Shown one piece after another: positions 24,166 to 50,500 of a stretch of 64,000 nt of DNA (position 1 is its first letter; every line of letters starts with the position of its first letter). A program made the translations under genes and the position numbers. Source of the DNA: Azolla caroliniana (taxonomy: Eukaryota; Plantae; Polypodiophyta); the NCBI GenBank assembly GCA_043228905.1, contig JBHGNT010000009.1:1240001-1304000 (forward strand), written 5' to 3'. The notes below the pieces were generated by a model, which did no database searches, was not told the origin of the DNA, and saw only the letters and a list, made by a program, of their open reading frames with translations.

Positions 24166-24325
24166 TGTCGTGAAGATTTTCCGCGATAGTGTGGAAATTG
24201 TAAGGAACATTCGAAATCGAGTGCGGCTTTTCACTATTATTGTTTTGTTTTCTCGTGAGAAGAGCCACACTCGATTTCGAATGTTCCTTACAATTTCCAC
24301 ACTATCGCCGAAAATCTTCACGACA
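24166..24325. repeat. 160-bp fold-back made of two head-to-head LTR starts (about 62-bp arms)
   Basis: TGTCGTGAAGATTTT...GAGTGCGGCT / AGCCACACTC...AAAATCTTCACGACA. 24229-24413 is the reverse complement of about 27509-27694. Confidence 0.9.
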
Positions 24326-24583
24326 TCCACCCCCACCAAACCGCACGTCCTCCGGTACGTGCCAAGAAGAGAGAAAGTGAGATTTCAGCAATAGTGATCA
24401 GTATGACTCCTCCACTAGGTACTAGTACTAGTTTACATGTGCCACTAGGTGTGACACATGTTGCTTCTCCTCTCAATCCACGCGCTCTACTTTCTTGTGG
24501 GGACTATTTGTGCCCCATGCTTCAATAGTCCGCTCTAAAAATCTGAGGATTCGCCTCCAAGACTATCTCGATTCCTTTCATGA

Positions 24584-27526
24584 TTGGCTCGCATCATTAA
24601 GAATTGGACCGATCTTTGGCTGTCAAGACTCTTTATTCGTGCGAAGGCTGCTTCATTATCGAACACTTTGGTCTCCATCAACATGTACATTATCATCGAT
24701 GAATATCATCGAAGCATCTTGATTAAGGAAGCTGACGTCAACACAAAATATAAAACGGTGGATAAGAAGGTCAAGCTAGTTGCAGTTCCGCTACCGGAAG
24801 ATAGCTGGCAGAAGATGAAGGAAGTCACTAACGACCCAAGCTTAAGAGATCCGAAGACAATAGGTCATGTCTTCACCAAAGAGACGAAGGGAAAGCTACG
24901 AGTTGGAAGGGAGGATTTCCTTCTCCCTGAAGACGAGCGAATGTTTCAAGACATGCTTGAGAGACATGGGAAGACTTTCACATTTTTCCCATGAGAAATC
25001 GGATGTGCTGACCCAAGGACAATAGAACCAATGGTGATCTTCACGGTGCCGCTTGTGCCTTGGAATTTGAAACCGATACCGGTTCCGAGAGCACACCTAC
25101 CGAAGTTGATCGAGCTCTTAAAGGAGAAGGTGAATATGGGAATTCTGGAACCGTCGAATGCTCCTTATTCCAATAAGTGGTTCACGGTCCCAAAGAAGAA
25201 TGGATCATTGCGATTCATCCAAGATCTTCAACCCGTCAATAAGGTGACAATTCGAAATGCCGGAATCGGTCTGAGCGTGGATGAATTTGCCGAGGCGTTT
25301 GCGGGCCGGTCCATCTACTCCATTGGTGATATCTACTCCAGATATGACCAATTCCAATTGGTGATCGACAGTCGTGACATTACAACCATGTGGACTCTGA
25401 TCAGCCTTGTGCGGATGTGTACCTTACCTTAAGGCGCAACGAACTCGGTGGCTCATATGGTGAATGCCATGAACAAAGTCTTGAAGGATTGTATCCCGGA
25501 CATCACGATGCCATTCTTGGATGATATTCCGATAAAAGGATGTTCGGATGAGGAGAAAGATGAGTCGAAAGATAAGGAAGGGTGTAGAAAGTCCGCATTC
25601 GGGCAACTCGAGATCTTGGTGGTAGGTCACTTGTGTGGAGCATACGGCCGGAAGCCTTCGCCATCCAAGGTGAACACGATCCAAGCTATGAAAGAAGAAT
25701 GCGTAAACCAAACGGAGGTTCGAAGGTTCCTTGGAGCATGTGCGTTTTATCATATCTGGATTCCGCAGTACGACCATGTCGCCGAACCTTTATATGGATT
25801 GCTAAAGAAAAGAGTGAAGTTTGAATGGCGTGACGAGCACACGAACGTGATGCGAAGATTGAAGAAACTACTTCTTAAAGCTCCAACACTAAGAAAGGCT
25901 GATTATACCGAAGGAAAGCCAAATTATGTGACTGTAGATACGAGCCCAACCGGAATCGGGTGGGTCATCAACCAAGAGGGAAAAGATAATGCGCGGTATG
26001 CCATCCAATTCAGAGCAAAAGTTCTCAGCGAATGGCAACAAAGATACGCCCAAGTCAAGCGGGAACTTTGGGATATTGTGTCGGCAGTGAAGACGAACAA
26101 AGATTACCTGATCGGGTCGGAAGTGATAATAGAGATAGATTGTCTCCCAATCATCGGAATGATCTCGGGATGTGCAACCCCAGATCTACCTATGCTAAGG
26201 TGGATCGCCTATATCAAGTCTTTAAACCCAGAGATCCATCACATTGCAGGGAAGAAGAACGCCATAGCTGACATGCTGTCAAGGGCAAGATTTGAGAATG
26301 AAAGTGACATGGTTTCGGAAGATGAAGATGTCACCCTCGACTTCTTCAAGGTGAAGAAAGAAGAGCAAGTGACGTTGATGACCAAATTCCACGAGAGTGC
26401 TTGGGCAGGTCATAAAGGAACATGGGCGACATTCGAAAAGTCGAAGGAAAAGTATTGGTGGTCGAGCATGTACAAAGATGTACTCCATTTTGTGTCCACA
26501 TGCGAAACTTGCCAAGTACATTCGAATATACGTCATCTTGATGAGTTACAAACGACATACCCGCTCACCATACACTTCAAATGGATGGTGGATCTGGTCT
26601 CGATGCCAATGGGAGTGGGACAAATGAAGTACTTAGTGCTGGCAAGAGAAGACTTGACAAATCAAGTGGAAGGATGGGCCTTGACGAATAAGACAACGTC
26701 AGCTGTTTGCAAATTTCTACTTGAAGAGGTTGTTTGCCGATACGGATGTGTGGGGAAGATAGTCGTCGACCGAGGGGAATTGGATGCACATGAAGCAACA
26801 GAGCTTTTTGAACGACTAGGTGTGAAGCTCTCCCTCACGACTGCCTACAATCCAAAAGCAAATGGGAAGATCGAGCAAGGGCATGGACCTATCGTCAAAG
26901 CCATTGTACGAGCATGCAACGGATGAGTCGGGAATTGGCCATGACTATTGCCCTATGCCTTGTGGGTTGACAGAACGACACACAGCTGGGTGACAAGGTA
27001 TATGCCAACGGAGCTTATGTATAGACAAAAGTCGGTGATGCCCATCGAAAGGACGATCGCCTCATGGGTAGCGATACCATGGGAGAACAAGATGAGCCAG
27101 GAAGAGTTATTAGCGACACGAATAAGGCAACTTGAAAGGAGACCTAAAGATCTAGAAAAAGCGCGAAAGATGATGGAGGCAGCCTGAGTAAAGAACAAAA
27201 TTCGGTTCCACAAGACGCATCGACTACGTCCCAAGAAGATCAAAGAAGGGGATTGGGTATTGGTCTACGACAGTAGCCTTGACAATCAACACAATACAAC
27301 AAGGAAGTTCGCAAGAAGATGGTTTGGACCATATGTGGTGACAAGTGCTAACGACAATGCCACATACCACCTTGCGGAGCTAGATGGATCAAGGTTGGCC
27401 ATACCCATTGCGGAAAAAAGAGTAAAGATTTTCAAGAAAAGACAAGACGAGGATCCTAACCTCGATCACCTCGACGATGAAGATAGTAGGACAGAAGTAA
27501 ATGAGGACGTGGAGGATTCATACTGA
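24584..27526 (+). pseudogene. Phygy-like Gypsy pol (RT-RH-INT) with stops and small deletions
   Basis: Closely similar to element A pol. Followed by PPT GGTGGGGGTGGA and LTR start TGTCGTGAAG at 27599. Confidence 0.92.
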
Positions 27527-28107
27527 TCACTATTGCCGAAATCTCACTTTCTCTCTTCTTGGCACGTACCGGAGGACATGCGGTTTGGTGGGGGTGGATG
27601 TCGTGAAGATTTTCGGTGATAGTGTGGAAATTGTAACGAACATTCGAAATCGAGTGTGGCTCTTCTCACGAGAAAAACAAAAGAATAATGGTGAAGATAA
27701 TATTTTGAATAAGTTTAATATCTAGGTACAAAAAGATGGAGGTCTTGAAGAGCTTTCAAATGTGTTTTACCACATAAAAAACGGACATCTAAGTGACAAG
27801 TTATGTGGGAGTGAAGTATGAGAAGGAAGAAGAGAAAAATAAAACTGTGAGATATCCCACATAGACAGGACAAAAAAGAACCCTACAATATATAAAGTAG
27901 AGCAAAAGCTATTATCTTTGTGTCTATGTGTGGATTATAGAGAGTTCAAGATGACTTGAACAAAGTTAATATGATGAACGAGTGTGGCTGCCTAGCTACA
28001 GGTTTTGGCCAACCGAAATAGGACCGTCGGCGGCATCCGGCGAGATGACAACGGGATAGATATATAAATAAATATATGTATACACATATATATATACACA
28101 AGGAGTG

Positions 28108-28172
28108 CAAGTGTGGATTTGAACCTTGCATCTCCAAGTTGAGAGTCTATAGGCTTACCACTAAGCCAAGAC
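28108..28172 (-). other. tRNA-like Pol III promoter cassette (SINE head or tRNA relic)
   Basis: A box TGGCTTAGTGG (28168-28158) with pairing D-stem GCTT/AAGC, B box GGTTCAAATCC (28125-28115). No full cloverleaf. Confidence 0.6.
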
Positions 28173-29882
28173 ATTTTCTTGAAATTTTATTTTTATCATT
28201 ATAGTTTTACATGTAAATTCTCATAGATGAGACCTTGAATGAGTAGCATGATTCTCATGCATCACATGTAACGCATGAGCGCCAAATGGCAAGCATGCAT
28301 CACATGCATCATATGCATGAGAGCATCTATAAAAGAGGAGATAAAAAAGAAGAAGGGTTAGGTACCTTTTTTTTATATGAAATTAAGAGAAGAAAATTCG
28401 TTATCGAATTGATCGTGTAACTTGTTTCTTAAATCTAAAGTCAATTGCTCAATCTTAATCTCGCTCTTTCGCCATATCAATCTTTCTCAATCTAAAGTCA
28501 AACGTTTAATCTCAAACTCTCTCTCTCAAATTATCTTAAATACAGCTACCGAATATCCGAAGGTGTGTCAAATACAGCTCATGCGCGGACACCTTGTCAC
28601 CGATCCGGTTTTCGATGTAGACGGTTGTCTGGACCGCCTCCGCCCAATAGAAATGGCGCATGCTCTTCTCCTCTAGAATTTCCCTTGCCACGTCGACAAT
28701 CGACCGGTTCTTCCTTTCTGCCACACTGTTTTGCTCCGGTGTGTACTTGCAGTTGAATTCTCTCCGAATTCCGTTCTGCTGCAGATAATTGTTGAATTGG
28801 CCGGAAAAGAATTCTTTCCCGCCATCCGACCGTAGGCAGTTGATCTTCCTCTCCGTTTCCTGTTCAACCAGTCTTTGAAGGTTCCGGAAACACTTGAATA
28901 CTTCACTCTTCCGCTCAATGAGGTAGATCCATGTGTGTCGGTTGTAGTCGTCGATGAAGGAGACGAAATATCGACTCTCGCCAAGACTAACGTTCTGTGT
29001 CGGCCCCCATACATCCGAATGAGTAAGGTCGAGCTTGTTACGGCTACAGTTTCTTTCGGTAGGGAATGGAAGCCGGTGTTGCTTCCTGAGTTGGCAGGCT
29101 TCACATATTTGGACCTTTCGATCATTGAACTTCGGCAAACCGAAAACAACTTGTTTCGTTTGCAGGTCTTGAAGCCTTCGATAATTGATGTGGCAGATCC
29201 GCTTGTGCTAGAGATCAATATTCGATTCAATCTTCTGTACTTTGGCGAACAAAGCGGTGCCGACGTCATTAGTGTCGAGGATGAACATCCTCCCATCTCT
29301 GCGCCCTTGCGCACTAATCTGGCCCTCTTCCTCGATGAAGCACCCAAGGTGCGTAAACCGCACCTGCATCCCCTGGTCAACAATCTGACCAATTGACACC
29401 AGGTTCTTCGTGATAGTCGGAACGTGTAATACGTTCATCAGCTTCCCCCTCTGTCCGACGTGGCTCAAAGGGACTTCTCCGATATGCACAATTGGGTGAG
29501 GAGTGTCGTCTCCGGTTTCGACGACTCCCGGTTGTTCCAATTTCTCCAAAAAGGAGAACCACTCTTTGTGGCTCGTCATGTGATTCAACGCACCAGAATC
29601 AACGTACCACACTTCCTCCGATTTGAAAGTGGTCTTCTTCATCGAGTTAGCCTCGTGTTTCATCACCAAGGCTGGCCCTTTACCGACTTTTCCGGTTTTT
29701 GATCCTCCCGATCCTTCTGCGTAGCGCGAGCTTTGCCGATTCTCCCGATCAGTTTTGCCGTATCCGGATTTGTCTGAATCGGCGCACTTCTTCCAACACT
29801 CGCTTTCCCTGTGGCCCTTTTTGCCATAGTACCAGCATTCCGTGTCGGCCTTTCCTTGTCGGCTCCCGCTGCCGCTTTGACT

Positions 29883-36739: not shown

Positions 36740-37600
36740 ATTATAGATAATCGCATGATGAAGTAACCATGTTCCATTCTATGTATATATGATCCCAATC
36801 TTCTATAACAAGTAAATCATCAATACATTTGTGGTCAATAGTCTTCTCGGTTGTTGTCCAAGTACTCACAATACATGTATGGGTGATTGATAAATTGTTA
36901 AAGTTGAATTCCATCTTGTAACTACATGAACTAGGCAAGGTGGTTCTTGTTTTAGAATGTATTCCAAAAATGGCAGTTCTTGATTGAGAATGTTTTCCAA
37001 AAATAGCTCTACAAACTTTAGGGGTGCATTTAGAATAACCTCTAATGCAACTTTACACTAAGATAATATGTATGAACCATCATGCATCTCAACATATGCG
37101 ATGCATTTACAATGTATTTTCCTTGGTGTCTTTGCAACAATCTAGCCAACTTCGTGAATGTGATTCGAGCATCATTAGCATCATCTAATGTTGTGAATAA
37201 AAACCATGAAGAAACACCAGATTCTAGATGAGTGAGCATAAGTTTCACCTTATGTTTTTCCTACTCCATCTCTAGGAAATACATCTAGAAAGTCTAGTAA
37301 GAGCATAGAAATTGGCAAAGAGACCCAATTTAAAGTCACTAGATAAAATCCTTTCGAACTACACATTTGTATATCCTCTAGCATCCTTGTTACGTGGAAT
37401 GAAAGATTGTTGTGCATCAAGTTGCAAACTTCTTGTACATGCATTCACGCCACCAAAGACAATGACCCCCCCCTTGCATTTTAAATAAGTAATATCCTCT
37501 TCTTCATTGACAAAATGTTGACCTTTATTCAAACAAGCATAAAAGTTACAATCTTGACCAGGAGTGTAACATTCAACAACAAATGTGGACATATTACTTA
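36740..37600 (-). pseudogene. Highly decayed Gypsy RT relic
   Basis: FLDVFP, GQHFVNEEEDI..VIVFGGVNA and CIDDLLV resemble Gypsy RT motifs. Confidence 0.35.
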
Positions 37601-37621
37601 GTATTTCTATTTTGAGCCATA

Positions 37622-39071
37622 TGTCACATTTATGTTCATCATTTTTTTGATCGACTCACATTTCTTACTTTTGTCAAGGACATAATCAAGATTCGAACTC
37701 TTCACCTCTTGTATATAGTCAAGTGTTATGTTCTAACCAACACATCCAAATACATAGTCATGTTATGTATATCTTAATATATTAATACTAGATTATCTAT
37801 TTCAAGTTGTAGGAGTTTTTAGAAAGTTCTAGAACTAGAAGGTTCTAGAGGGTTCTAGAATATTCTCCCAAATATTCTCGAGAATATTCTAATGCATATA
37901 CTTCAACTCGCAGTATAAATACTTGTAACCTCCTTAGTCCCTTTCAAGGGATTCAACGCCAGTCATTGACATATCAATCTAGTATTCTTCTTTAGCCCCA
38001 TCTTCTCTCCTTGATTTACATCTTTGTCTTTATGCTCTTGTATTGTTCCTAGCGTCTTAAGGTCCTCATCTCGTCGCTCCCAACTTCCAGAGTTTCTAGC
38101 CTCATCACGTTTAGTTCCATGTTCGTAACCTTATCAATCATAGCCTCATCATCTGTGCTTTGTCGTACTCTAGGGTTGGTGTGTCCGTGACCGTTTGAAT
38201 CCCTTCAAACTAGAAGCACCACCCGTCTTCATCGTTGACCTTGCTTCTAGAGTTACCATGCTCATGCCCGTTGGTCTACTATCCTCCGGTGAGGACCACA
38301 AATGGTCGCTCACGCCCGTTGGTGTTTGTGTTCCTTGTGAGGACCGCACATGGTCTCTCACGTCTGTCGGTGTTCTAGTTCCTGGTGAGGACCTCACATG
38401 GTCGCTCACGCCCGATCGTATCCAAGTCTCCGGTGAGGACCACACATGGTCACTCACGCCCGTTGGTGTTCGTGTCTACGGTGAGGACCGCACATGGTCA
38501 CTCACGTCCGTTGGTGTTCGTGTTTTGGTGAGGACCACACATGGTCGCTCACCCCTGTTGGTATTCGTGTCTCCAGTGAGGACCGCACATAGTTGCTCAT
38601 GTCGTTGTTGTTCGTGTCTCCGGTGAGGACCGCACATGGTCAGCCACTCCTCAACCTTCTCTTGTTTTCTCTTTAAGCTCTTCCCTACACCACACTTCCG
38701 AAAAGGCGGTCATAAAGGGGAGGATATTGTCACAGACATGACGGCCATGCTTTCAAAAAGGCAGTCGTAAAGGGGAGGATAATGTCACGGAGTATAAATA
38801 CTTGTAACCTCCTTAGTCCCTTTCAAGGGATTCAATGCCAATCATTGACACATCAATCTAGTATTCTTCTTTAGCCCCATCTTCTCTCCTTGATTTACAT
38901 CTTTTTCTTTATGCTCTTGTATTGTTCCTAGCGTTTTAAGGTCCTCATCTCGTCACTCCCAACTTCCCGAGTTTCTAGCCTCATCATGTCTAGTTCCACG
39001 TTCGTAACCTTATGAATCATAGCCTTGTCATCTATGCTTTGTCGTAGTCTAGGGTTGGTGTGTCTGTGACA
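37622..39071 (+). mobile_element. Non-coding TRIM-like LTR element, self-priming type
   Basis: Direct repeats 37912-38192 and 38791-39071; TGTCAC starts at 37622 and 38783; end GTGACA; duplicated PPT AAAGGGGAGGATA; internal 48-bp tandem array. No TSD found. Confidence 0.78.
38262..38642. repeat. About 8 copies of a 48-bp tandem repeat inside the TRIM
   Basis: GGTGAGGACCRCACATGGTCRCTCACGYCCGTTGGTGTTCGTGTCTCC, contiguous, no spacers. Confidence 0.9.
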
Positions 39072-42000
39072 ATTTCCCTCTCAATCAAATATGCCATCCT
39101 CATTGTCTTAGATTTTTCGGCCATATCAAAGATCGTACATTGTGTTTACCTAAACCTTGATTCCTTTGAGTTTCATGCCCTCATGTTTCAACAAGAATTA
39201 TGACATCCAAGTCATAAGTCAACTCCTCTATGCCAAATCCCACATTCCATGGGCATCCATTGCAATTCTAAAAGCATAGTCGTAGAATACGTAAATTAGT
39301 CCCATAGGTCATGCGTTTAAATTTATCTACGAAGTTTCCATTTTTAAGCACATCCTTAACGTTAATTTTCAAAATTTCCTCTATGTTTTATGATGGGAAT
39401 TTTGTTGTGAGTAGCACGATCTTCACTCAAAAAACATTGCCTACCTTTGAGGTACACCAAACTATTTTTAAGTATGATCCTTCGCTTTGAATTATTTGTC
39501 ATTGTCATACAATATGCCTTTGTCCCAAATGAGCAACACGTTTCCCAACTTTGTGTGCCCCATAAACATTCACATCTAATAAATGACCATAATACATACT
39601 AAAGAATTCACCAATGACCTTTCCAAGGGATGCATGTGTTTCCATACTCTCCTCTTTAATCCCATGGATGTCAATTGTCCTTGATCATCTTTCATGTTCT
39701 TTCAATTCTTGGAGGTCTATGCGTTTTACATTAATCTCTTGATTCATTACATGCATTATAGGCGAGTTAGATCCACATCCCTACCACATATATCCGTTTA
39801 TGACTTTGTTCTACATACATTTTTCATCTCACTTACATCCTAACTCATTATGTCCATTTTTTCCTCCTATAATGCTTCCTTTAACTCAAACTTGTTTAAG
39901 AGCTCATTTGTCTCTAATTTGGTTTCCTTACATGCTTGAATCTCATCTTCAAGTTTTGCAACCATTTGCTCAAGACCCTCATTCGCAATAACAACAACAT
40001 GTAGTATTGCAACCATTTGCTTAAGACCCTCATTCTCAATAACAACAACTTTTAATTTTACATTCTCATTCATTAGTTGTCCTAATATCTTCACCTTGCT
40101 TGTTTATGGTTCCTTGAAGAGCATTCAAATATTTATAATTATTTTCTCCATTATTGTTGAATCTATTGCATTAATATCAAGAATAATTGGTGATCTTGGT
40201 TCATTATTGATCATAGCCACACACTTTGTTGCCCCCCTTGTGAGTGTTTGCCATTGTTTCCATTGGAGTATGTTTTATATGTAGTGTCTGTTGGGAATAT
40301 GTCCCTCCAATAGGAGGATGATCCGACTGTTTAGAAAGCCGACACTCGAAGAGTTGGGAAACAGGAGCCGAGATGACGGCCTCGGCCGAAACCGGAATCG
40401 AGTAAATAGCCAACTTGTCAATAGTTTAAGTGTGCGCCCCATGAGGGCTATGTATGTAAATAACCAAAAATTTGCGTAAGTATATATGTAACTAGGGCAA
40501 ACTTTTAGGTAACACAGTGTGTAAGAACAGAGGTAGTAGAAACAGAGAGAGAGCGTGAAAGAGAGAAGTGTGAGCCGTGCCACAGCTGTGTGAGTAACAA
40601 AAGACGTGAAGAGCCCTGTGCGTTTGATACACTCGATAGAGTGTTGTATTCCTCTCGGTGTTGTATGTCCACTTTGTATAGTGAAGTTCTGTTCATGTGG
40701 TTTTCCCTGTTTTAGGGTTTCCACGTAAATCTCTATGTACATCTGTTTATCTTGTCTTTCTAGCACTTCTTGTGATTCGTATTTCAGCGCGTAGTTCGTT
40801 TATTGTGATCTATTCCGCATCGATTTCTCAAAAAATTGGTATCAGAGCTTGAGGTGCAAGCATGGAAGGAGGTGTGAGCGGTTTCCCAGGTATGATAGTT
40901 CTCAACTCACAGAACTATGTAGACTGGAAGATCAAGATGGAGGACCTTCTCATAGTCAAAGACCTGTACGAGCCAGTCGACAGAGCAAAAATACCCAGGG
41001 GGTATTGGAGTCGGACTGGAAGCTTTTGAATAGGAAGGCGATGGCCACAATCCGACAATGTGTCGATGTAAGTGTCCTTCAGCATGTGGCGAACGACACG
41101 AATGCCCACGAGATGTGGCAGAAGCTGTCGTGTTTGTACAAGAGGAAGAACGTGCTAAACAGAACCTCGCTAATGAGAAAAATCGTACGGCTGAAATACA
41201 GAGACGGTGAGAGCATCGTCGAACATATCAGCACGTTTATGGGGTATGTAAATCAACTTGCTGTGACCAAGTTTCCCCTGGATGACGCAATGGAGGCCAT
41301 CATGTTGATGTGCACACTTCCGGAAAGCTAGGAGAACCTAGTGGTTACTCTCAACACCTCCTGTCAAGAAGAGAACTTGTTTCTACATATGGTGAAGACA
41401 AGCATCCTAAACGAGGAGGCAAGGAGGAAAGACAAAGGAGTCTTGTCCCAAACGGAGTCGACTCTGACTCAACAGATGGACAGAGGAAGAGACCGGTGAA
41501 GAAGAAGTCCGTAGCGAAGGAACAAATCCCATGCCAGATCGAAGTCCAGAGGTAAGCCTGTGTGCTTCTATTGCGGAAAACCTGGACACTTCCAAAAGGA
41601 CTTCTGACACATGAAGAAAGATAAGTCTATCGGAAACAATGTTGAACCCCGGAAAATTCCGGATGAAAAGAACACTTCGGCCATTGCTACGAGCAATGAG
41701 GAACTCCTGTTCATATGTGAACAGACAAGTGCAAACCTTGCAAGCGAAGAGTGCACTTGGGTGATTGATTCCAGCACATCCTTCCATATTACTCCTTTGA
41801 CAGAGTATTTCTCGACTTACATAGTCGGGGATCATGGCTATGTAAAGATGGGTGATAGTGGAGAGTGCAAGATAACCGGAGTCGGAAGTGTGTGCTTAAC
41901 GACGTCGATAGGGTGTCAACTAACGTTGAAGGATGTTTGACATGTCCCCGATATCAGATTCAATCTGATATCAACTGGAAAGCTTGACGATAAAGGCTAC

Positions 42001-42550
42001 AGTGGTAGCTTTTGGAATGGCAAGTGGAAGTTCTACCGAGGAAACCTCATAGTGGCTCGAGCACAGAAAGAAGGCACATTGTACATGATGCATGCCCGAC
42101 TGTGCAAATTGGAAGTAAACGTGGCAGCCGACTCGGTAGGAGAGATATGGCATAAGAGGCTAGGCCACATGAGTGAAAAGGGAATGCACCTGTTAGCCGA
42201 CCAGAAACTTCTACCAGAAGTCAAGGGAGTGCACCTAGAGAAGTGTGTCGACTGCTTAGCCGGACATGACGGCATTCCACTCGAGACCACCAAGGAGAAG
42301 AGAAGCTGCACTTGAACTAGTACACACGGACTTGTGCTATGTGGATGCTCCATCGCATCGAGGTGTCAGAACCAAGGATAAAAGATAGAGTGATGGAAGA
42401 AGGATAGAGAAGAATGGATGTATAAGATATAGAAAGAAAGAGAATGGATACAAGATATGTAATGAGAGCTAAAGACTGGTGTTGATTCGAATTGATTTGA
42501 GAATACATGTATGCGCTTATTTATAGGTTCCTATAGAATAGCTTAGAGAT

Positions 42551-42614
42551 TTCTAGAATGTTCTAGAATGTTCTAGACCTAGAATGCTCTAGGACATTCT
42601 AGAACATTCTAGAA
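42551..42614. promoter_or_regulatory. Heat-shock element array in the chromovirus LTR (also about 47785-47849)
   Basis: TTCtaGAAtgTTCtaGAAtgTTC and TTCtaGAAcaTTCtaGAA, 26-90 bp upstream of TATAAATAA (42525-42517, -). Confidence 0.75.
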
Positions 42615-42761
42615 TAATCTAGATTTTTTACAATAATCAATGTAATACAAGAAGTAGCTCAAATATTATTGTTTCATATAACAATAAGCTATCTTAATGG
42701 TTGAGGTTTTCAAGTATGAATTACAAGGTTCGAGGTTCAAGTCCGGGTGACGCCATAACGG

Positions 42762-45700
42762 TCATGTGTTCATGACACTATCCCTCCTTCGAGAACGCCG
42801 AGTGGAAGTCGGCGTTAACATTGTTGGGCCGGGCTTGTTTGGATAGTGACGATGGAAGTCGTTGACCAGAGCTTCAGCATTACAAACGTTATCGATGGGT
42901 TCCCAAGTGCGATCACTCGGAGGATAACCAAGCCAATCAACTAGATAATAAAGCTTATTGCGCACAATCTTAGAATCGAGAATAGCAGCTACCTCGTATT
43001 CGGGGCCGTCCACAAGTTGTACAGAAGGCGGTGGTGGCACGACACGATCAGGAATTAAAGAGGTGTGGCAAGGTTCCAAAAGAGAGCTATGAAAGACAGG
43101 GTGAAGCCGCATATGTGCAGGAAGGTTAAGATGAAATGTTGCATCATTAATCTGCGCCGTGATGACAAAAGGACCTAAGCGTTGATAGTCAAGCTTAGCA
43201 CACGGTCGGGTAGTCTTGATGTGATGACGAAGCAACCATACACGGTCACCAACCTTAAACGGAGACTTAAGACGATGTCGATCGGCATTGGTCTTATGGT
43301 GTGCTTGCGCTTTCTGAAGATCTGACGATAACTCGAATTGGATTTGTTGTAGTTGGTGGAGGTGATGCGCCGCACTAGGGTTTCGTGACACCTCGGGAAG
43401 ATCCAGTATACACCATCGAGGGTGGTTGCCGGTGTAGGCAAAGAAAGGTGCAACTTTGGTAGAAGAGTGGACCGTGTTGTTGTATGCAAACTCAACAAGA
43501 TGTAAAATTTTACTCCAATCATCTTGTTGATAACTAATGAAACATCGAAGATATTGCTCGAGCGTTTGATTTGTGCGCTCTGTTTGTCCGTCAGTTTGTG
43601 GATGATGAGCCGAAGAGAGTTTGCAAGAGATTTTGAGGCCTGCCCATAGGTGCTTCCAAAAGTGTGAGATAAATTGAGGACCTCGATCGCTAATAATATC
43701 ATTCGGGAGACCATGATGGCGAAACACTTCACGCATAATGAGATCTGCAGTTTCTTCACTATTGATGATCTTTACACATGGTACAAAATGTGCCATCTTG
43801 GTGAACCGATCCACTACTGTTAAAATAGTATCAAAGCCTTTGGAAGGTGGCAGATCCGTAATGAAATCCATAGAAATAGACTGCCATGGCTTGTTGGGAG
43901 GGGGTAATGGTTGTAGTAAGCCATAAGGGTGATGCTGGGGTATTTTGGCGCGACAACAGGTGTCACAAGTGCGAACATAATCTTCGACAAATTTTTGCAA
44001 GTGAGGCCACCAAAACGAACGTTTCACCAGCTCAATGGTCTTGGAAATACCAAAATGTCCAGCCATGGGGGCATCATGACAATGTTCCAACACTTGAAGT
44101 CGGGGTGATCCGTCGGGGACGTAAAGGAGATTCTTGTAGAAGAGTAAACCATCTTGCCACTTGAAGTCCTGATAATGTTGAGATGACCCTGGCAATGTGG
44201 AGCAAGATGGACGACTTGAACCACAGTGGGCTAAGACATCCTTAGCAAAATCATCCGAATGAAGTTGTTGCTGAATAGTGTCAAGAAGGGTAGAATCAAG
44301 TGGTGTGGCATAAATTGTTGTTACCTGTAGCTTTGATGGCCCGAGGAGAGTTTGCTTTTGATTGTCAAAGGCCGGATCTCCAGGTCGAAGTGCTAGATAC
44401 GAACGCCGAGACAGAGCATCTGCTTTCCCTTGTTGTTTTCCGGGGCGAAAAATGATCTTGAAATCGAAACGCGTTAGAAATTGGGCCCACCGAGCTTGTC
44501 GTCTATTTAATACTCGAGCTGTTTGAAAATATGTGAGATTTTTGCGATCACTATAAATGATAATCTGATGAGGTGATCCTTCTAGAAAATGATGCCATTG
44601 CCCGAATGAGTCGACCACAGCTAGTAACTCCTTGTCATGCACCTCATAGTTTATCTCCGAAACAGTAAACTTTCTCGAGTGAAACGCGACTGGATGTATC
44701 TGCCCGTCCTCGCCTGGTTGCGATAGGATACTCCCCAATGCAAAGTCTGATGCATCCGCCTCAATAGTAAATGGCTTTTCAGGATTAATATGTGCTAGGA
44801 TGGGTTCTGATGTGAATGCCTCTTTTAGCTGCGTAAAAGCCTTGTCCGCTTCGATACTCCAAAAAAATGCTTGATTTTTCTTGGTGAGTTGAGTAAGGGG
44901 CAACAAAATGCTTGAATAATTATGTATGAATTTGCGATAGAAGTTCGCAAATCCGAGGAAACACTGGACATCCCGAACTGAGCATGGGGGTTTCCATTCC
45001 AATATTGTTTGGACTTTTGCCGGGTCCATGAAAACACCCTGGGATGAAATAGTGTATCCCAAAAATTCGACTTGTTTGCAATCAAAACTGCATTTCTCAA
45101 GTTTGGCGTAAAGACCATACTTCCTTAGGCGTTCAAGTACTTGCCGCACATGTATATCATGCTCCCCCTGTGTTTTAGAGTAAATCAATAGATCATCTAG
45201 GTAGATGATTAGAAAAATATCCAAGAAATCCCGGAAGATGTCATTTGCCATATGTTGGAATACGGCAGGTGCATTTGTGAACCCGAAAGGCATGACTGTA
45301 TACTCAAAATGACCATACCGAGTACAAAATGCTGTTTTCCACTCATCTCCCGGTCGAATTCGAACAAGATTATATGCACCCCTTAGATCAAATTTGGTAA
45401 AATGCTTTGCCCCACCAATGCGTTCTAAGAGATTGGAGATTAAAGGTAAAGCATACCTATTCCTTATGGTGACTTTATTTAAGCCTCGATAGTCCACGAC
45501 CAAACGAAGGGAGCCGTCCTTTTTCTTCACAAAAAAGATAGGAGCACCAGCTGGAGACTTTGAATGTCGAATAAACCCATGTGCAAGATTTTCCTCGATG
45601 TATTCTCGAAGAACCTCAAGCTCAGTGGGTGATAAATTGTAAATCGGACCCCACGAAGGCTCTTTTCCTAGTTGGAGATCAATAGGACAATCGTACGGCC

Positions 45701-47537
45701 GATGCTTTGGAAGAACACTAGCTTTGACTTTGTCGAAAACATCAGCATAGTCTTGATATTTTTTGGGAATTTGGATGTCTGAATTCCCTTGAGTGACACT
45801 AGAAGGTGTCACTGATACTGCAAATAAGAAAAGGTCCTCCTTGCCTCCCACTTGGTGCAATTGTTGCAATGTGATGGCTGAAATTTGATGAGAAGGATAT
45901 GGTGCATCGGTAGAACTATATACTTTGGGAGGATAATCCCGAGTTCGATCCTTGACAATGATATTTTCTGCTAAAGGGCACCTAATTTCTCGCTTCCTCC
46001 AATCGATTCTAGGGTTATGTAGCTCGAACCATGGCAAACCGAGGACAATTGGATGCTCAGGACTACGGATTATGTTAAAGGAAACTACACATCCCAAATC
46101 ACCCAAGAGTATGTGTATTGGCTCAGACTCTTCAAATATCTTCCCGGAAGCTATGGGGCGTCCATCAATCACTACTACGGAAACTGGACAAGGAAGTGTA
46201 TGCAAGGATATTTGGTGTTTTTGGGCAAAATCTCTATCCATGAAACAAGAATTGGCTCCAGTATCTAAGAGGGCTTGGACTTGAAGTTGACAACTGGGTG
46301 TCCTAACTTGTACTAGGGCTGAGAAGACTCTACTAACATGCTTGGAAGAAATGGAACCCACACTAGGTTGTACATATCTAATTGGCTCCTCTTCTAATTG
46401 GCTTAGGACTTCAAATTTATTGGACAAGGGTGGATTATTCATAATATTAGATTCACTAACTACTTCTAAAATGTTGGACTCATTTTTATTGTCATAGTGA
46501 ATTTGATTTACCTGACGTCTCGGCCTATGGGAGCAATGAATGGCTATATGTCCTGGACCTCCACAATATAAGCACAGATGGTTTGCTCGACGACGTTGCT
46601 TCTCTTCGTCTGACAACGGTCCTCGTCGTTGAGTCATATTGATCTCCATGGGTGTAGGACTATCCATTGGGACTGGATTACGTGTTTGCCTTGGAGTTGG
46701 AGCAGGGCTATACATTTGCCTTGGGGATGATTGCGCCGTTACTGATGCATAAGTTGGTGTGAATCTAGATCTTGTTATTTGTTGTTGTCGCTCACATCGA
46801 CGCTCAAAAAGGCAATTATCACACCGTATTGCTCGACTAATAGCTTCTGTAAGTGACCTTGGATCCTCGGGGAAGGTAAGAAGTAAGTCTTTGACATCAC
46901 TACGAAGGCCTGAACGGAATTGCTCCATTAGGGCTTGTTCATCCCAAGGAATATCGCTTGCGATGAGACGGAAATTGGCAGCATATGTTGAAGCTGGTTG
47001 ATCACCTTGACGAAGTGTACGAATCTTGTTGATAGTTGTTCTCGCCCCATCAGTATCTCCGAAACAAGCCTTAAATTCCTTGATAAATTCCTCGAAATTA
47101 TTCAGTAGAGGAGAATTGGTCTCTAGCAATGGAGCAAACCACGACAACGCTATGCCACTCAATAAAGTGCCCACTAGCCCGACTCGTGATGCATCTGTTG
47201 GATAACGTGCGGGATGCATTTGAATCACCAACCGTACTTGATTCAAAAAACCTCGGAAATGCGCCCTCGACCCATCAAATTTAGCTGGGAGGCTAATTTT
47301 GGGCTCCTTGATAAGTCCCTGACCTTCAACCCTTTGTTGTTGTAACACGACGATTGTCGACCCTAACTGTTGCACTCGTCGCGTGAACTCCTCTTGTTGT
47401 TGTTGCTTCTCTATAGTAACCTTTTGTAGATCCCCAAGTAGACGTTGATTCTCTACTTCAAGAGATGCGAACTTGGATTTAAGGTTCTCCATTTCTGCAA
47501 CAAGGGTGAGATATTCTTCTGAGTTAATGGCAGCCAT
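42762..47537 (-). CDS. Gag-Pol polyprotein, about 1591 aa (Gag, CCHC, PR, RT, RH, INT, chromodomain)
   Basis: Start MAAINSEE; CLYCGGPGHIAIHC; LLDTGA; YLDD; ADASD; HHCC and DDE motifs; GPF; YEVAAILDSK...YYLVDWLGY...TWEP. The upstream ATG at 47750 lies inside the LTR. Confidence 0.95.
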   Translation of the reverse strand: MAAINSEEYLTLVAEMENLKSKFASLEVENQRLLGDLQKVTIEKQQQQEEFTRRVQQLGSTIVVLQQQRVEGQGLIKEPKISLPAKFDGSRAHFRGFLNQVRLVIQMHPARYPTDASRVGLVGTLLSGIALSWFAPLLETNSPLLNNFEEFIKEFKACFGDTDGARTTINKIRTLRQGDQPASTYAANFRLIASDIPWDEQALMEQFRSGLRSDVKDLLLTFPEDPRSLTEAISRAIRCDNCLFERRCERQQQITRSRFTPTYASVTAQSSPRQMYSPAPTPRQTRNPVPMDSPTPMEINMTQRRGPLSDEEKQRRRANHLCLYCGGPGHIAIHCSHRPRRQVNQIHYDNKNESNILEVVSESNIMNNPPLSNKFEVLSQLEEEPIRYVQPSVGSISSKHVSRVFSALVQVRTPSCQLQVQALLDTGANSCFMDRDFAQKHQISLHTLPCPVSVVVIDGRPIASGKIFEESEPIHILLGDLGCVVSFNIIRSPEHPIVLGLPWFELHNPRIDWRKREIRCPLAENIIVKDRTRDYPPKVYSSTDAPYPSHQISAITLQQLHQVGGKEDLFLFAVSVTPSSVTQGNSDIQIPKKYQDYADVFDKVKASVLPKHRPYDCPIDLQLGKEPSWGPIYNLSPTELEVLREYIEENLAHGFIRHSKSPAGAPIFFVKKKDGSLRLVVDYRGLNKVTIRNRYALPLISNLLERIGGAKHFTKFDLRGAYNLVRIRPGDEWKTAFCTRYGHFEYTVMPFGFTNAPAVFQHMANDIFRDFLDIFLIIYLDDLLIYSKTQGEHDIHVRQVLERLRKYGLYAKLEKCSFDCKQVEFLGYTISSQGVFMDPAKVQTILEWKPPCSVRDVQCFLGFANFYRKFIHNYSSILLPLTQLTKKNQAFFWSIEADKAFTQLKEAFTSEPILAHINPEKPFTIEADASDFALGSILSQPGEDGQIHPVAFHSRKFTVSEINYEVHDKELLAVVDSFGQWHHFLEGSPHQIIIYSDRKNLTYFQTARVLNRRQARWAQFLTRFDFKIIFRPGKQQGKADALSRRSYLALRPGDPAFDNQKQTLLGPSKLQVTTIYATPLDSTLLDTIQQQLHSDDFAKDVLAHCGSSRPSCSTLPGSSQHYQDFKWQDGLLFYKNLLYVPDGSPRLQVLEHCHDAPMAGHFGISKTIELVKRSFWWPHLQKFVEDYVRTCDTCCRAKIPQHHPYGLLQPLPPPNKPWQSISMDFITDLPPSKGFDTILTVVDRFTKMAHFVPCVKIINSEETADLIMREVFRHHGLPNDIISDRGPQFISHFWKHLWAGLKISCKLSSAHHPQTDGQTERTNQTLEQYLRCFISYQQDDWSKILHLVEFAYNNTVHSSTKVAPFFAYTGNHPRWCILDLPEVSRNPSAAHHLHQLQQIQFELSSDLQKAQAHHKTNADRHRLKSPFKVGDRVWLLRHHIKTTRPCAKLDYQRLGPFVITAQINDATFHLNLPAHMRLHPVFHSSLLEPCHTSLIPDRVVPPPPSVQLVDGPEYEVAAILDSKIVRNKLYYLVDWLGYPPSDRTWEPIDNVCNAEALVNDFHRHYPNKPGPTMLTPTSTRRSRRRDSVMNT

Positions 47538-50500
47538 GGTTTCAGGATGGTTACAAAGGAGGATAAGAGAGAGAGAGAGAGAGAGTGAGAGAATTCGAAT
47601 CAAACTGTCAAAACCAAGGATAAAAGATAGAGTGATGGAAGAAGGATAGAGAAGAATGGATGTATAAGATAGAGAAAGAAAGAGAATGGATACAAGATAT
47701 GTAATGAGAGCTAAAGACTGGTGTTGATTCGAATTGATTTGAGAATACATGTATGCGCAGGTTCCTATAGAATAGCTTAGAGATTTCTAGAATGTTCTAG
47801 AATCTTCTAGACCTAGAATGCTCTAGGACATTCTAGAACATTCTAGAATAATCTAGAGTTTTTACAATAATCAATGTAATACAAGAAGTAGCTTTTATTG
47901 TTTCATATAACAATAAGCTATCTTAATGGTTGAGGTTTTCAAGTATGAATTACAAGGTTCGAGGTTCAAGTCCAGGTGATGCCATAATGGTCATGTGTTC
48001 ATGACACGAGGTGGACAATACTTTGTAACGTTTATTGACGACTATAGTCGGAAACCATGGCCTTCGTACTGAAGTCGAAGGATCAAGTACTGTCGATTTT
48101 CAAGGAGTTCCAGGCAAGAATGGAAAGAGAGTTGGGTTGGAAACTGAAGGTTGTTTGAACTGACAATGGTGGCGAGTATAAAGGGCAGTTCGGAGAATAC
48201 TGCAAGAGCCAAGGTATTTGAATCGAATACACAGTACCAAAGACCCCAGAGTTGAACGGGCTTGCAGAGAGGATGAATTGAACGATCATGGAAATAGTAA
48301 GGACCATGCTCTCTCATGTGAAACTGCCGAAGTTGTATTGGGCTGAGGCGTTGTACACAACTGTTTATCTGATCAACAGGTCTCCCTCAGTGCCATTAAA
48401 GGGTGATGTCCCACAAAGGGTGTGGACAGGGAAGGATGTCTCCTACCAACACCTGAGGGGGTTTGGATGTTTGGCGTATATGCATGTACCAAAGGATCAG
48501 AGGTCAAAGCTTGACAGCAAGTCGAAAGCATGCATATTCATGGGATACTCGAAAGATGAGTTCGGCTACAGGCTATTGGACCTAGTCGACAAGAAGGTAG
48601 TGAGAAGTCAGGATGTAGTCTTTCTCGAAGACAAGACAATTGTAGACTGGAAGCAATAGAAGTCGGAACCGACTCCCTAGTCAACCTCGACTACCATCAA
48701 CTTAAGGCCAAGTGAGTTGTCACCAACAGTTGTAAGGAGACAGTTGGCCGACAGAGCCGAATCCGAGTCGGTCGACTCGGAAAGACTGACAGACTATGAG
48801 TCAGAGTTGGCAGAGCTGTTGAAGTCAATTGATGAAATATGAGTTGGAGTTATCCAACTCATATGATGCCGATTGACAAGCAAAATCCCGAGCAGAGAGA
48901 AGAGTTGGCAGAGACATCCAGACTGGAGCCAAGAACGAGTGGACGAAGATACCCACTCAGAGAAAGGAAGGCACCGATTACATATGCCGGTCAATATGTC
49001 CTCTTGACTGATGACGTGAACCAGAGTGCTATGAAGAAGCCATTGCCGACGAGAGCAAAGAAAAATGGTTGAGCACGATGCAAGAGGAGATGGAATCCTT
49101 GCACGCGAATTACACCTATGACCTAGTAGAGCTGCCGAAAGGGAAGATAGCACTCTGGAATAAATGGGTCTACAAGGTGAAGACTGGAGAAGTTGATAGC
49201 GAGCCCATGTATAAAGCCCACATAGTGGTGAAGGGTTTCCAACAGTAGAAGGGCGTCGACTTTGACAAAATATTCGCACCAGTCGTGAAGATGACATACA
49301 TTTGAACTGTTCTGAGCATAGCGGCCAGTTTGGACCTGGAGATCGAACAATTGGATGTCAAAATCGCATTTCTGCACGGGGAGCTAGAAGAAGAAATTTA
49401 CATGCAGCAACCCGAAGGCTTTGAGGAGAAAGGGAAAGAGAATCTAGTATGTTGATTGAGGAAAAGCTTGTACGGTTTGAAACAAGCTCCACGCCAATGG
49501 TACAAGAAATTCGAGTCCTTCATGATGGAACATTGGTTCCAGAAAACACAGGTTGATCATTGTGTGTTCTTAAAAAGGTACAAGGAAGGAGATTTCTTGA
49601 TTCTCTTGCTATATGTTGATGATATGTTGATAGTCGGCCAAGATGCAAGGAAGATTGGAAGCTTGAAGAAAGCTCTCGGCAAATCATTTGCCATGAAGGA
49701 CCTTGGACCGGCAAAGCAAATCCTAAGAATGCACATAACCCGAGACAGAGCTCGGAAGGTGCTATGGTTGTCACAATAGAAGTATGTGACGAAGTTCCTA
49801 GAGAGGTTCAACATGTCGAACGCAAAGTCGGTCGGCTCAGTGTTGCCAACAAATTGCAGATTGAATTTGAAGCAGTGTCCGAAAGGGTAGAAGGAAAAGG
49901 CTAAGATGAAGAAGGTACCATATGCCTCGGCCGTTGGCAGTCTAATGTATGCTATGGTCTGTACAAGACCGAACATAGCATTTGCTGTGGGAGCAATAAG
50001 CCAATATATGAGTAATCCAGGGAGAGAACATTGGGCAGTAGTGAAGTGGATACTCAGGTACCTGAAAGGCACCTCGGAGGTGTGCCTAAGGTATGATGTC
50101 GGAAAACTTGTGCTGGAAGGTTTTACCGATTTGGACATGTCAGGAGATGTCGACTCGAGATGATCCACGTCAGGGTATGTGATGACCTATGCAAGGGATC
50201 AGTGTCGTGGCAGTCACGACTGCAGAAATCTGCAGCCTTGTCCACTACATAGGCAGAGTATATGGCAGCGGTAGATGCCGGAAAAGACCTGATCTGGATG
50301 AGAAATTTTCTCACCGAATTAGGCATGAAGCAAAAGGAGTTCGTGCTTCATTGTGATAGCCAAACTCCCATACATCTAGCCAAGAACGCGGCATACCACT
50401 CTTGGACCAAGCACATACAGAGAAGGTATCACTGGTTACAGGAGAGAGTCGAAGAAGGAGAGTTTTCTCTCGAAAAGATCCATACTGACGACAATGGATC

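What the first reader, a model, noticed from the sequence alone, without database searches (positions are those of the whole stretch)
37622..48006. Shared four-part LTR module in an autonomous chromovirus and a dissimilar non-coding TRIM (antisense Pol III cassette, HSE array, TATA, self-primer)
Seen: both LTRs have the same order. TGTCA start; antisense tRNA-like A/B boxes within about 130 bp; TTCnnGAA arrays; TATAAATA; then, 32 nt after the first T of TATA, an 11-12-mer complementary to the sequence just after the 5' LTR, which begins GTTTGA in both. The LTR sequences otherwise do not align by eye. Inference: a heat-inducible, tRNA-independent autonomous/parasite system in a non-seed plant. 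I do not know of this combination being described, but could not search.
Basis: partly seen in the sequence, partly recalled or inferred. Interest (0 to 1): 0.85.

Follow-up and report, generated by a model that had tools for sequence, protein, structure and literature searches.

The report
Backward tRNA promoter in self-priming retrotransposons
Several related plant jumping genes, among them a coding one and a small non-coding one in this window, keep a backward-facing tRNA-like promoter signal at the outer edge of their terminal repeat, ahead of an exchangeable enhancer (heat-shock-type sites in some) and a predicted self-primer, and the backward signal likely shields the element's own promoter from silencing.

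Summary
The four-part order is real, with two corrections. The non-coding element starts at 37672, not 37622, and the chromovirus 5' LTR has lost its TATA box.

Self-priming is well supported: primer and primer site change together across families, the primer starts 31-33 nt after TATA, and it folds onto the site as in Tf1. This is already predicted for Tcn1 chromoviruses, and the scan noted self-priming on other DNA. The heat-shock arrays far exceed chance but occur in only some families; induction is untested.

The least familiar part is a tRNA-type A/B-box signature, antisense at the U3 edge, kept in four coding families (59-93% protein identity) and the non-coding element. Two close relatives lack it, and Rfam scores it below threshold. 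I found it neither in print nor in earlier scan notes.

The non-coding element is not a mimic of this chromovirus. Its U3 and pre-PPT match another chromovirus lineage (L004), which occurs in the organisms holding the window's DNA. The shared order is best explained by descent. The cassette most likely binds TFIIIC as a chromatin barrier (about 40%). New variant of a known kind.

The parts
42364..48006 (-). Tf1/sushi-type (Tcn1-like) chromovirus, full length, nested in a Ty1/copia element
   Evidence: TSD CGAGG at 42359-42363 and 48007-48011; LTR pair; copia gag at 40795-41328
47606..48006 (-). Chromovirus 5' LTR (TGTCA...TGACA) with cassette, HSE array and primer; TATA box missing (8-bp gap against the 3' LTR)
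42364..42777 (-). Chromovirus 3' LTR with all four parts
42762..47537 (-). Single gag-PR-RT-RH-INT-chromodomain frame, 1591 aa from the first Met after the PBS; chromodomain has Tyr/Trp/Tyr at the aromatic-cage positions (read by eye)
42690..42744 (+). Antisense tRNA-type cassette in the 3' LTR: A-like box TATCTTAATGG, AGGTT, B box GGTTCAAGTCC
47919..47973 (+). Same antisense cassette in the 5' LTR
42541..42623 (.). HSE-type array, 3' LTR (5 perfect three-unit matches)
47775..47857 (.). HSE-type array, 5' LTR (5 perfect three-unit matches)
42518..42525 (-). TATAAATA, first T 32 nt before the primer
47724..47735 (-). Predicted 12-nt self-primer at the predicted start site (3' LTR copy at 42482-42493)
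   Evidence: mean pairing probability with the PBS 0.93
47592..47603 (-). Primer-binding site, 2 nt (GT) after the LTR end
42778..42790 (-). Polypurine tract and spacer before the 3' LTR
37672..39071 (+). Non-coding, TRIM-like LTR element (1400 bp in this copy), allied to the L004 chromovirus lineage
   Evidence: no Pfam hit in its only long frame
37672..38192 (+). 5' LTR of the non-coding element with all four parts
37689..37748 (-). Antisense tRNA-type cassette: A-like box TGGATGTGTTGG, AGGTG, B box GAGTTCGAATC
37817..37890 (.). HSE-type array (perfect three-unit matches at 37822 and 37853)
37914..37921 (+). TATAAATA (3' LTR copy at 38793-38800)
37946..37956 (+). Predicted 11-nt self-primer, 32 nt after the first T of TATA (3' LTR copy at 38825-38835)
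   Evidence: mean pairing probability 0.88
38195..38205 (+). Primer-binding site, 2 nt (GT) after the LTR end
38260..38647 (+). Eight 47-48-bp tandem units; the three folded each give a hairpin of about -14 kcal/mol
38695..38782 (+). Duplicated pre-PPT/PPT segment (first copy followed by a stray TGTCA at 38728); resembles the L004 pre-PPT
38783..39071 (+). 3' LTR with most of U3 (cassette and HSE) deleted in this copy

Best explanation
Both elements belong to one clade of Tf1/sushi-type plant chromoviruses whose LTR runs tRNA-type cassette (antisense), exchangeable enhancer, TATA and a segment complementary to the primer site; the RNA is predicted to start at that segment and prime itself, the heat-shock-type array would drive it under heat, and the backward cassette likely binds TFIIIC and shields the promoter. 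Steps. (1) Shown in sequence: order, spacing, complementarity, covariation. (2) Inferred, about 90%: Pol II starts 31-33 nt after TATA; the first 11-12 nt pair with the site behind the 5' LTR in a Tf1-like fold and are cut off by RNase H as primer. The shared CA-GT-TTG junction is part of that fold. (3) Inferred, about 70%: HSF binds the arrays and makes the families that have them heat-inducible; sister families carry other motifs in the same slot. (4) Inferred, about 40%: the antisense A/B boxes act as DNA, recruiting TFIIIC at the outer LTR edge as a barrier, which would suit an element whose aromatic-cage chromodomain is expected to aim it at H3K9-methylated chromatin. (5) Inferred, about 75%: the non-coding element is a derivative of the L004-like lineage and is moved by proteins of that lineage or any clade member, not specifically by the window's chromovirus. 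The two copies here are each damaged in one LTR.
For: Primer and site change together: AATTCGAATCAA (window, L001), ATTCCGGTTCAA (L003), AAGGTGAACAA (L005), a 12-mer in L081, AAGGGATTCAA (non-coding element), each with TATA at -31 to -33. Pairing probability 0.88-0.94 in 5 of 5 leaders folded; non-coding leader z -3.1, 0 of 200 shuffles. HSE arrays in window LTRs, L001/L009 and L004, 0 of 300 shuffles each, and in L081. Signature (RT1-2GGT[TC], 18-32 nt, RGGT[CTG]-N4-GTTCRA) occurs 8 times in 1.44 Mb of both strands, all 8 antisense in the first 140 nt of clade LTRs; 0 of 20000 shuffles for each of 6 LTRs. AGGT and GTTC-A are invariant in 7 of 7 aligned cassettes while T-stem pairing ranges from 1 to 4 of 5, which points to a DNA motif rather than an RNA fold. 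L003 scores as tRNA (15.8 bits, model 1-71, antisense). A profile of the cassettes finds one held-out hit, window 28089-28177 (E 1.3e-4), with a consensus A box and B box. In contigs laid on L004, none of the 40 listed variable places (of 57) lies in the B-box core, AGGT or the A-box GG, while neighbours vary. Contigs of all 4 runs bridge L004-like chromodomain code into that LTR. tDNAs and B2 SINEs act as boundaries elsewhere (10.1101/412247 and PMC8136502, passages).
Against: No expression, start-site, ChIP or activity data. Rfam finds no tRNA on either window cassette or L009 at E<=10; L003 is below the gathering score of 29. ARAGORN at default finds none in the window or 60 loci; relaxed calls are weak, with 1-8% of shuffles called at -ps80 and up to 35% at -ps70, where L005 (no cassette) is also called. 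The signature was written after I had seen these LTRs, so its 8 of 8 is not an independent test. None of the clade cassettes meets a strict A-box pattern. L005 and L011, close to L004, lack the cassette, so it is dispensable. A loose-end line from 12 contigs of one run shows a change at the B-box C. No conserved T-run terminator. No coding element with the non-coding element's own primer was found, and L004's primer differs. Barrier function of B boxes is taken from yeast and mouse, not from plants.
Confidence: 0.55

Rival explanations
1. The cassette is a relic of a tRNA-derived SINE that inserted backwards into an ancestral U3 and is carried along without function; the rest is an ordinary self-priming Tcn1-type LTR with HSEs.
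For: Absent from L005 and L011; A boxes degenerate; Rfam and ARAGORN scores low; a similar cassette with a TA-rich tail lies at window 28075-28177; SINE insertion into an LTR is the proposed origin of Helenus and Cassandra (PMC10886601).
Against: The tRNA-invariant letters persist in U3s that otherwise barely align (z 0.7-5 between families) across 59-93% protein identity, always 14-36 nt from the LTR edge.
Confidence: 0.27
2. The cassette is a working Pol III promoter whose antisense transcript matters: it reads out of the 5' LTR into the flank and from the 3' LTR back over the PPT, and would regulate the element (small RNAs or transcriptional interference).
For: A and B boxes keep tRNA-like spacing (22-27 nt between motifs); AT-rich DNA lies upstream on that strand; L002 and L003 have a T4 run 30-37 nt on.
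Against: No T4 inside the LTR in the window elements, L001 or L004; stems not conserved; A boxes weak.
Confidence: 0.2
3. The cassette works in the element's own RNA: the 3' U3 carries the complement of a tRNA and pairs with host tRNA to help packaging, dimer formation or strand transfer, like the tRNA-complementary U3 segments recalled for Ty3 and HIV-1 (recalled, no call).
For: The antisense orientation makes the genomic RNA complementary to tRNA loops.
Against: Only letters common to all tRNAs are kept; the stems differ from family to family; the element needs no tRNA primer.
Confidence: 0.08
4. One reading: the non-coding element is an unrelated parasite that converged on the LTR layout of the window's chromovirus and is moved by it.
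For: Same junction (CA-GT-TTGA), same TATA spacing, HSE arrays in both, similar PPT; LTR homology is not required for trans-mobilisation (PMC10886601).
Against: The junction and spacing are clade-wide; U3 and pre-PPT match L004 instead, and L004-like coding elements occur in the same runs.
Confidence: 0.12

Closest known systems
Tcn1 clade / Tf1-sushi chromoviruses (Neumann et al. 2019, PMC6317226, passages and one supplement row; Novikova et al. 2010, PMC2864245, passages; Tf1 pretzel in 10.1101/2022.12.06.519325, passages)
   Same: Chromodomain with aromatic cage, 5-bp TSD, 5.6 kb, no tRNA PBS, LTR-complementary site 2 nt behind the 5' LTR, primer at the predicted start site, flanking duplex.
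   Different: The passages read mention no tRNA-type cassette or HSE array in Tcn1 LTRs and no non-coding self-primed derivative; this copy has a single gag-pol frame, whereas the two layouts listed as prevailing in the supplement row appear to set gag apart from pol.
Helenus, Ajax and Cassandra (TRIMp3; Kojima 2024, PMC10886601, parts 1-4 of 6 and passages)
   Same: tRNA-derived A/B boxes inside an LTR; non-coding element; proposed origin from a SINE insertion.
   Different: Helenus is non-autonomous, 311-1263 bp, tRNA-primed, and its boxes are thought to drive the element's own RNA. Here the boxes face away from the element, occur in coding families, sit in front of a TATA promoter, and the element is predicted to self-prime. 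The paper notes that other Repbase LTRs hold tRNA-like parts but analyses only those under 1000 bp.
HSE-bearing LTR retrotransposons: ONSEN and other Brassicaceae COPIA families (PMC7329337, passages); Macrostomum Ty3 families (PMC12801592, abstract)
   Same: Canonical HSE arrays upstream of TATA in the LTR, gained in some families only.
   Different: Those are shown to be heat-induced; here induction is untested, and the carrier is a predicted self-priming plant chromovirus and its non-coding ally.
tDNA and B2 SINE chromatin boundaries (10.1101/412247 and PMC8136502, passages)
   Same: A/B-box DNA bound by TFIIIC at the edge of a chromatin domain.
   Different: Those are host genes or SINEs in yeast and mouse; here the boxes are built into a retrotransposon's LTR and no binding is shown.

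Membership tests
Ty3/gypsy chromovirus | gag-PR-RT-RH-INT order with C-terminal chromodomain | tested here: met
Tcn1 clade (Tf1/sushi) | No tRNA PBS; site behind the 5' LTR complementary to 10 nt or more in the LTR | tested here: met
   12 nt; criterion from PMC6317226
Tcn1 clade (Tf1/sushi) | 5-bp TSD; size 5466-9444 bp | tested here: met
   CGAGG, 5643 bp; range
Tcn1 clade (Tf1/sushi) | Aromatic-cage chromodomain | tested here: met
   Tyr, Trp, Tyr at the cage positions, read by eye; no structure predicted
Tcn1 clade (Tf1/sushi) | RT-RH-INT groups with named Tcn1 references | tested here: inconclusive
   Quick tree puts it with fungal and vertebrate named proteins, apart from three named plant/algal ones; no named Tcn1 or PpatensLTR2 sequence was among the rows
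Tcn1 clade (Tf1/sushi) | Self-primer cleaved by RNase H at the RNA 5' end | not testable with these tools
   needs RNA and cDNA ends
TRIM | No coding capacity; two LTRs, primer site and PPT | tested here: met
TRIM | Shorter than 1000 bp | tested here: not met
   1400 bp in this copy, about 1.6 kb if both LTRs were full; limit from PMC10886601
TRIM | PBS complementary to a tRNA 3' end | tested here: not met
   No TGG start; the site is complementary to the element's own LTR. Host tRNA set not available, so an internal tRNA match was not excluded
Helenus / TRIMp3 | tRNA-derived A and B boxes in the LTR | tested here: inconclusive
   Signature present; Rfam and default ARAGORN negative on the window
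Helenus / TRIMp3 | Boxes placed to transcribe the element itself by Pol III | tested here: not met
   Boxes are antisense and point out of the element; a TATA at -32 fits the primer
Helenus / TRIMp3 | tRNA-primed reverse transcription | tested here: not met
   LTR-complementary site
Heat-responsive LTR retrotransposons (ONSEN type) | Three or more adjacent nGAAn units in U3 | tested here: met
Heat-responsive LTR retrotransposons (ONSEN type) | Heat-induced, HSF-dependent transcription | not testable with these tools
   needs heat-stress RNA data or a reporter

The most novel reading that the evidence does not exclude
A clade of heterochromatin-targeting, self-priming plant chromoviruses has built a tRNA-derived TFIIIC barrier into the outer edge of its LTR: a portable insulator that keeps an exchangeable stress or developmental enhancer open after insertion into silent chromatin. 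A self-primed non-coding passenger family has inherited the whole module.
Probability: 0.35. Interest if true: 0.75.

Novelty: new variant of a known kind. Interest (0 to 1): 0.55.

Why it matters
If the cassette is a barrier, it offers a testable answer to how chromoviruses that aim at silent chromatin stay transcribable, and it would be a Pol III promoter used as a built-in insulator by coding LTR elements rather than as the promoter of a TRIM. The families also form a natural swap series (cassette present or absent, HSE present or absent, different primers). The non-coding element would be a predicted self-primed TRIM-like family, which my searches did not find described. If the cassette is a relic, the finding reduces to a Tcn1-type element with heat-shock sites, which is ordinary.

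Tried and rejected
No whole genome is held, so no copy census. No RNA holder listed; this is no evidence either way. Rfam over 37000-48600 gave only miRNA-family matches to the palindromic HSE arrays, far below gathering scores: rejected. Rfam tRNA negative on three cassettes. ARAGORN default negative; relaxed ARAGORN too permissive to rely on. Viral contigs held no close relative. An RT-domain protein search gave no named Tcn1 reference among the 120 listed. The careful tree did not finish and the quick tree was used. TGTCA at 37622 rejected as the element's end. The 150-aa frame over the 48-bp repeats has no Pfam hit and two units are 47 bp: not treated as a gene. Self-primer calls for L009 (HSE palindrome) and L070 were judged spurious and not counted. 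A hairpin across the start site is strong in 3 of 12 LTRs but not in the window's two: not made part of the model. Earlier scan notes: no look-alike by sequence, none near, none for the full word set; the 8 shown of 45 concern a different, PPT-less lineage.
Full report
WHAT IS THERE. The range holds two separate elements. The first is a chromovirus on the minus strand, 42364-48006, with a CGAGG target duplication, nested in a copia element. It has one open frame with gag, protease, RT, RNase H, integrase and chromodomain, and its LTRs differ by 8 substitutions in 401 aligned sites. The second is a non-coding LTR element on the plus strand. Its left end is TGTCA at 37672, not 37622. A contig of run X12 covers 37317-37648 and resumes at 39106 without the element, and single contigs in three of the four runs join the PPT side (38788) back to 37686, so other copies have a full U3 in the 3' LTR. 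This copy's 3' LTR lacks most of U3, and its target duplication matches at 3 of 5 letters. The chromovirus 5' LTR has an 8-bp gap that removes TATAAATA. Each element therefore shows the complete order in one LTR only.

RELATIVES. No genome is held. A protein search found relatives at 57-91% identity in assembled metagenomes, and scans with their alignment gave 91 loci (the metagenome scan covered 5 of 64 parts and kept the best 80). An LTR start behind the chromodomain was found automatically in 26 places of 25 loci; L004 was added by hand. The other loci gave no LTR start and were left out of LTR counts.

SELF-PRIMING. In both window elements the 5' LTR is followed by GT and then 11 or 12 letters that are the exact complement of a segment starting 32 nt after the first T of TATAAATA. 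One search reported a match of 9 nt or more for 12 of 26 LTR entries; I discount two as spurious. A second scan, independent of the 3' LTR, found junction, primer and TATA in 7 of 43 gag starts. The letters differ by family while the pairing holds: window and L001 share one 12-mer, L003 has another, L005 an 11-mer, L081 a 12-mer, the non-coding element an 11-mer. TATA lies at -31 to -34 in 9 of 12 LTRs examined; for L002, L004 and L011 the primer was assigned by position, though L002's matches L003's site and L004's matches L005's. Folding from the predicted start gives primer-site pairing probabilities of 0.88-0.94 in 5 of 5 leaders, with a further duplex between the sequence after the primer and the LTR end; the non-coding leader has z -3.1. 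This resembles the Tf1 'pretzel' (10.1101/2022.12.06.519325, passages), and it explains the shared GTTTGA as a clade feature. Self-priming is predicted for 83% of Tcn1 elements (PMC6317226, passages and a supplement row), so this part is known. The scan also noted self-priming in 34 findings on other genomes.

HEAT-SHOCK ARRAYS. 12 of 13 perfect three-unit HSEs in the window lie in these three LTRs; 0 of 300 shuffles per LTR reach the count, and four other window LTR stretches have none. Among loci, arrays occur in L001/L009 and L004 and in L081, not in L002, L003, L005 or L011. HSE-driven LTRs are known from ONSEN and other COPIA families (PMC7329337, passages) and from flatworm Ty3 families (PMC12801592, abstract). 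Induction here is an inference.

THE ANTISENSE CASSETTE. Aligned on the antisense strand, seven cassettes share AGGT and GTTC-A without exception, and a TGGT motif lies 22-27 nt upstream. These are the variable-loop, T-loop and D-loop letters of tRNA (recalled; Helenus keeps YGG and GGTTC, PMC10886601). A pattern for this signature hits 8 times in 1.44 Mb, all antisense in the first 140 nt of clade LTRs: three in the window, L001, L009, L002, L003 and L004, with 0 of 20000 shuffles for each of six LTRs. L001 and L009 have near-identical LTRs and are allied to the window's chromovirus, so this is four coding families plus the non-coding element. I wrote the pattern after seeing these LTRs. Independent support is thinner: L003 scores as a full-length antisense tRNA at 15.8 bits, E 0.5, below the gathering score of 29; a profile built from the seven cassettes finds, besides the training set and L009, one held-out hit at window 28089-28177 (E 1.3e-4), which has a consensus A box and B box and weakly resembles L002's U3 (z 4.9 and 7.1). 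In contigs laid on L004, none of the 40 listed variable places (57 in all) falls in the B-box core. Against: Rfam finds no tRNA on the window's cassettes or L009; default ARAGORN finds none; relaxed ARAGORN also-8% of shuffles at -ps80; no clade cassette meets a strict A-box pattern; one run's loose-end line over 12 contigs shows a change at the B-box C; L005 and L011 lack the cassette. T-stem pairing is 1-4 of 5 and no terminator is conserved, which favours a DNA-level role over an RNA one.

TREE AND PARTNER. A quick tree of 32 RT-RH-INT rows (midpoint root; L010 and L044 left out for short matches) puts the window element, L001, L009, L002 and L003 in one group (support 100), and L004 with L005 and L011 in another (98), about 60% identical to the first. 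The cassette needs two changes on this tree: one origin with losses, or U3 exchange. The non-coding element's U3 matches L004 (z 21; blastn 71.5% over 165 nt) and its pre-PPT does too (82% over 39 nt), whereas it does not match the window's chromovirus (z 0.7). Contigs in all four runs (three organisms, three studies) cover L004's chromodomain code and bridge into its LTR at roughly 82-87% identity, and 14-33 contigs per run show unrelated flanks at the LTR start. An L004-like coding family thus exists beside the non-coding family. Its primer differs, so the direct parent was not found. The shared order is better explained by descent than by mimicry of the window's chromovirus.

MECHANISM. Pol II would start 32 nt after TATA, under HSF control in families with arrays; the RNA's first 11-12 nt would pair with the site behind U5 and be cut to prime reverse transcription; the non-coding RNA would do the same in particles supplied in trans. 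For the cassette I favour TFIIIC binding at the outer LTR edge as a barrier (about 40%): aromatic-cage chromodomains bind methylated H3K9 (PMC6317226, passages), and A/B-box DNA forms boundaries in yeast and mouse (10.1101/412247 and PMC8136502, passages). Rivals are a functionless SINE relic (27%), a regulatory antisense Pol III transcript (20%) and RNA pairing with tRNA (8%). None was tested directly.

NOVELTY. Ten literature searches found Helenus (tRNA-like LTRs in short, tRNA-primed non-coding elements), Tcn1 self-priming and HSE-bearing LTRs separately, but no antisense tRNA-type cassette in coding chromovirus LTRs and no self-primed TRIM-like element. The library lacks most subscription papers and Repbase. 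Kojima notes that many Repbase LTRs hold tRNA-like parts and analysed only those under 1000 bp; his supplements were not opened and could bear on this. PMC2864245, PMC6934838 and PMC13570524 were read as passages only. The host was not identified; earlier scan notes guess fern or moss. Verdict: new variant of a known kind, interest 0.55.

Noticed in passing
window 28075-28345: A second antisense tRNA-type cassette (consensus A box TGGCTTAGTGG, B box GGTTCAAATCC, TA-rich tail) followed by CATG-rich motifs, GCCAAATGGC and a TATA-like box; weakly like the U3 of L002/L003. Either a relic LTR of this kind or a SINE.
   Followed up: partly
L003:4280-4323, L004:4404-4447, L005:1962-2005: An inverted copy of the primer sits just upstream of the predicted start site (0 of 500 shuffles each); weak or absent in the other 9 of 12 LTRs, including the window's two. 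In the RNA it exists only at the 3' end, where it could mask the 3' copy of the primer.
   Followed up: partly
L002:3342-3700, L003:4039-4300: These HSE-less LTRs carry GCCAA[AG]TGGC (1 and 3 copies) in the enhancer slot; the motif also occurs at window 22665, 28281 and 30385. It resembles an E2F site (recalled).
   Followed up: partly
L005:1851-1955, L011:2877-3030: Cassette-less relatives: L005 has a short CATG-rich U3, L011 a four-copy tandem repeat.
   Followed up: partly
window 38260-38647: Eight 47-48-bp units in the non-coding element; three were folded and each gives a GTGAG-GACC/GGTC-CTCAC hairpin of about -14 kcal/mol. Candidate packaging signal array.
   Followed up: partly
window 38695-38782: Pre-PPT, PPT and TGTCA are duplicated in tandem before the 3' LTR, like an aborted LTR start.
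   Followed up: no
L081:1-300: A further family (about 53% protein identity) with HSE array, TATA at -31 and a 12-nt self-primer, on a contig filed in a bacterial MAG; its U3 edge is cut off. Several such MAG contigs (L081-L086) look like eukaryotic contamination.
   Followed up: partly
window 24230-24415 and 27509-27695: A 187-bp inverted repeat pair (96%) flanks a degenerate gypsy RNase H-integrase region at 25433-26926.
   Followed up: no
window 1-64000: The window is a nest of LTR elements (LTR pairs near 1-417/10994-11415, 4041/10192, 40413/50729, 54721/63517).
   Followed up: no
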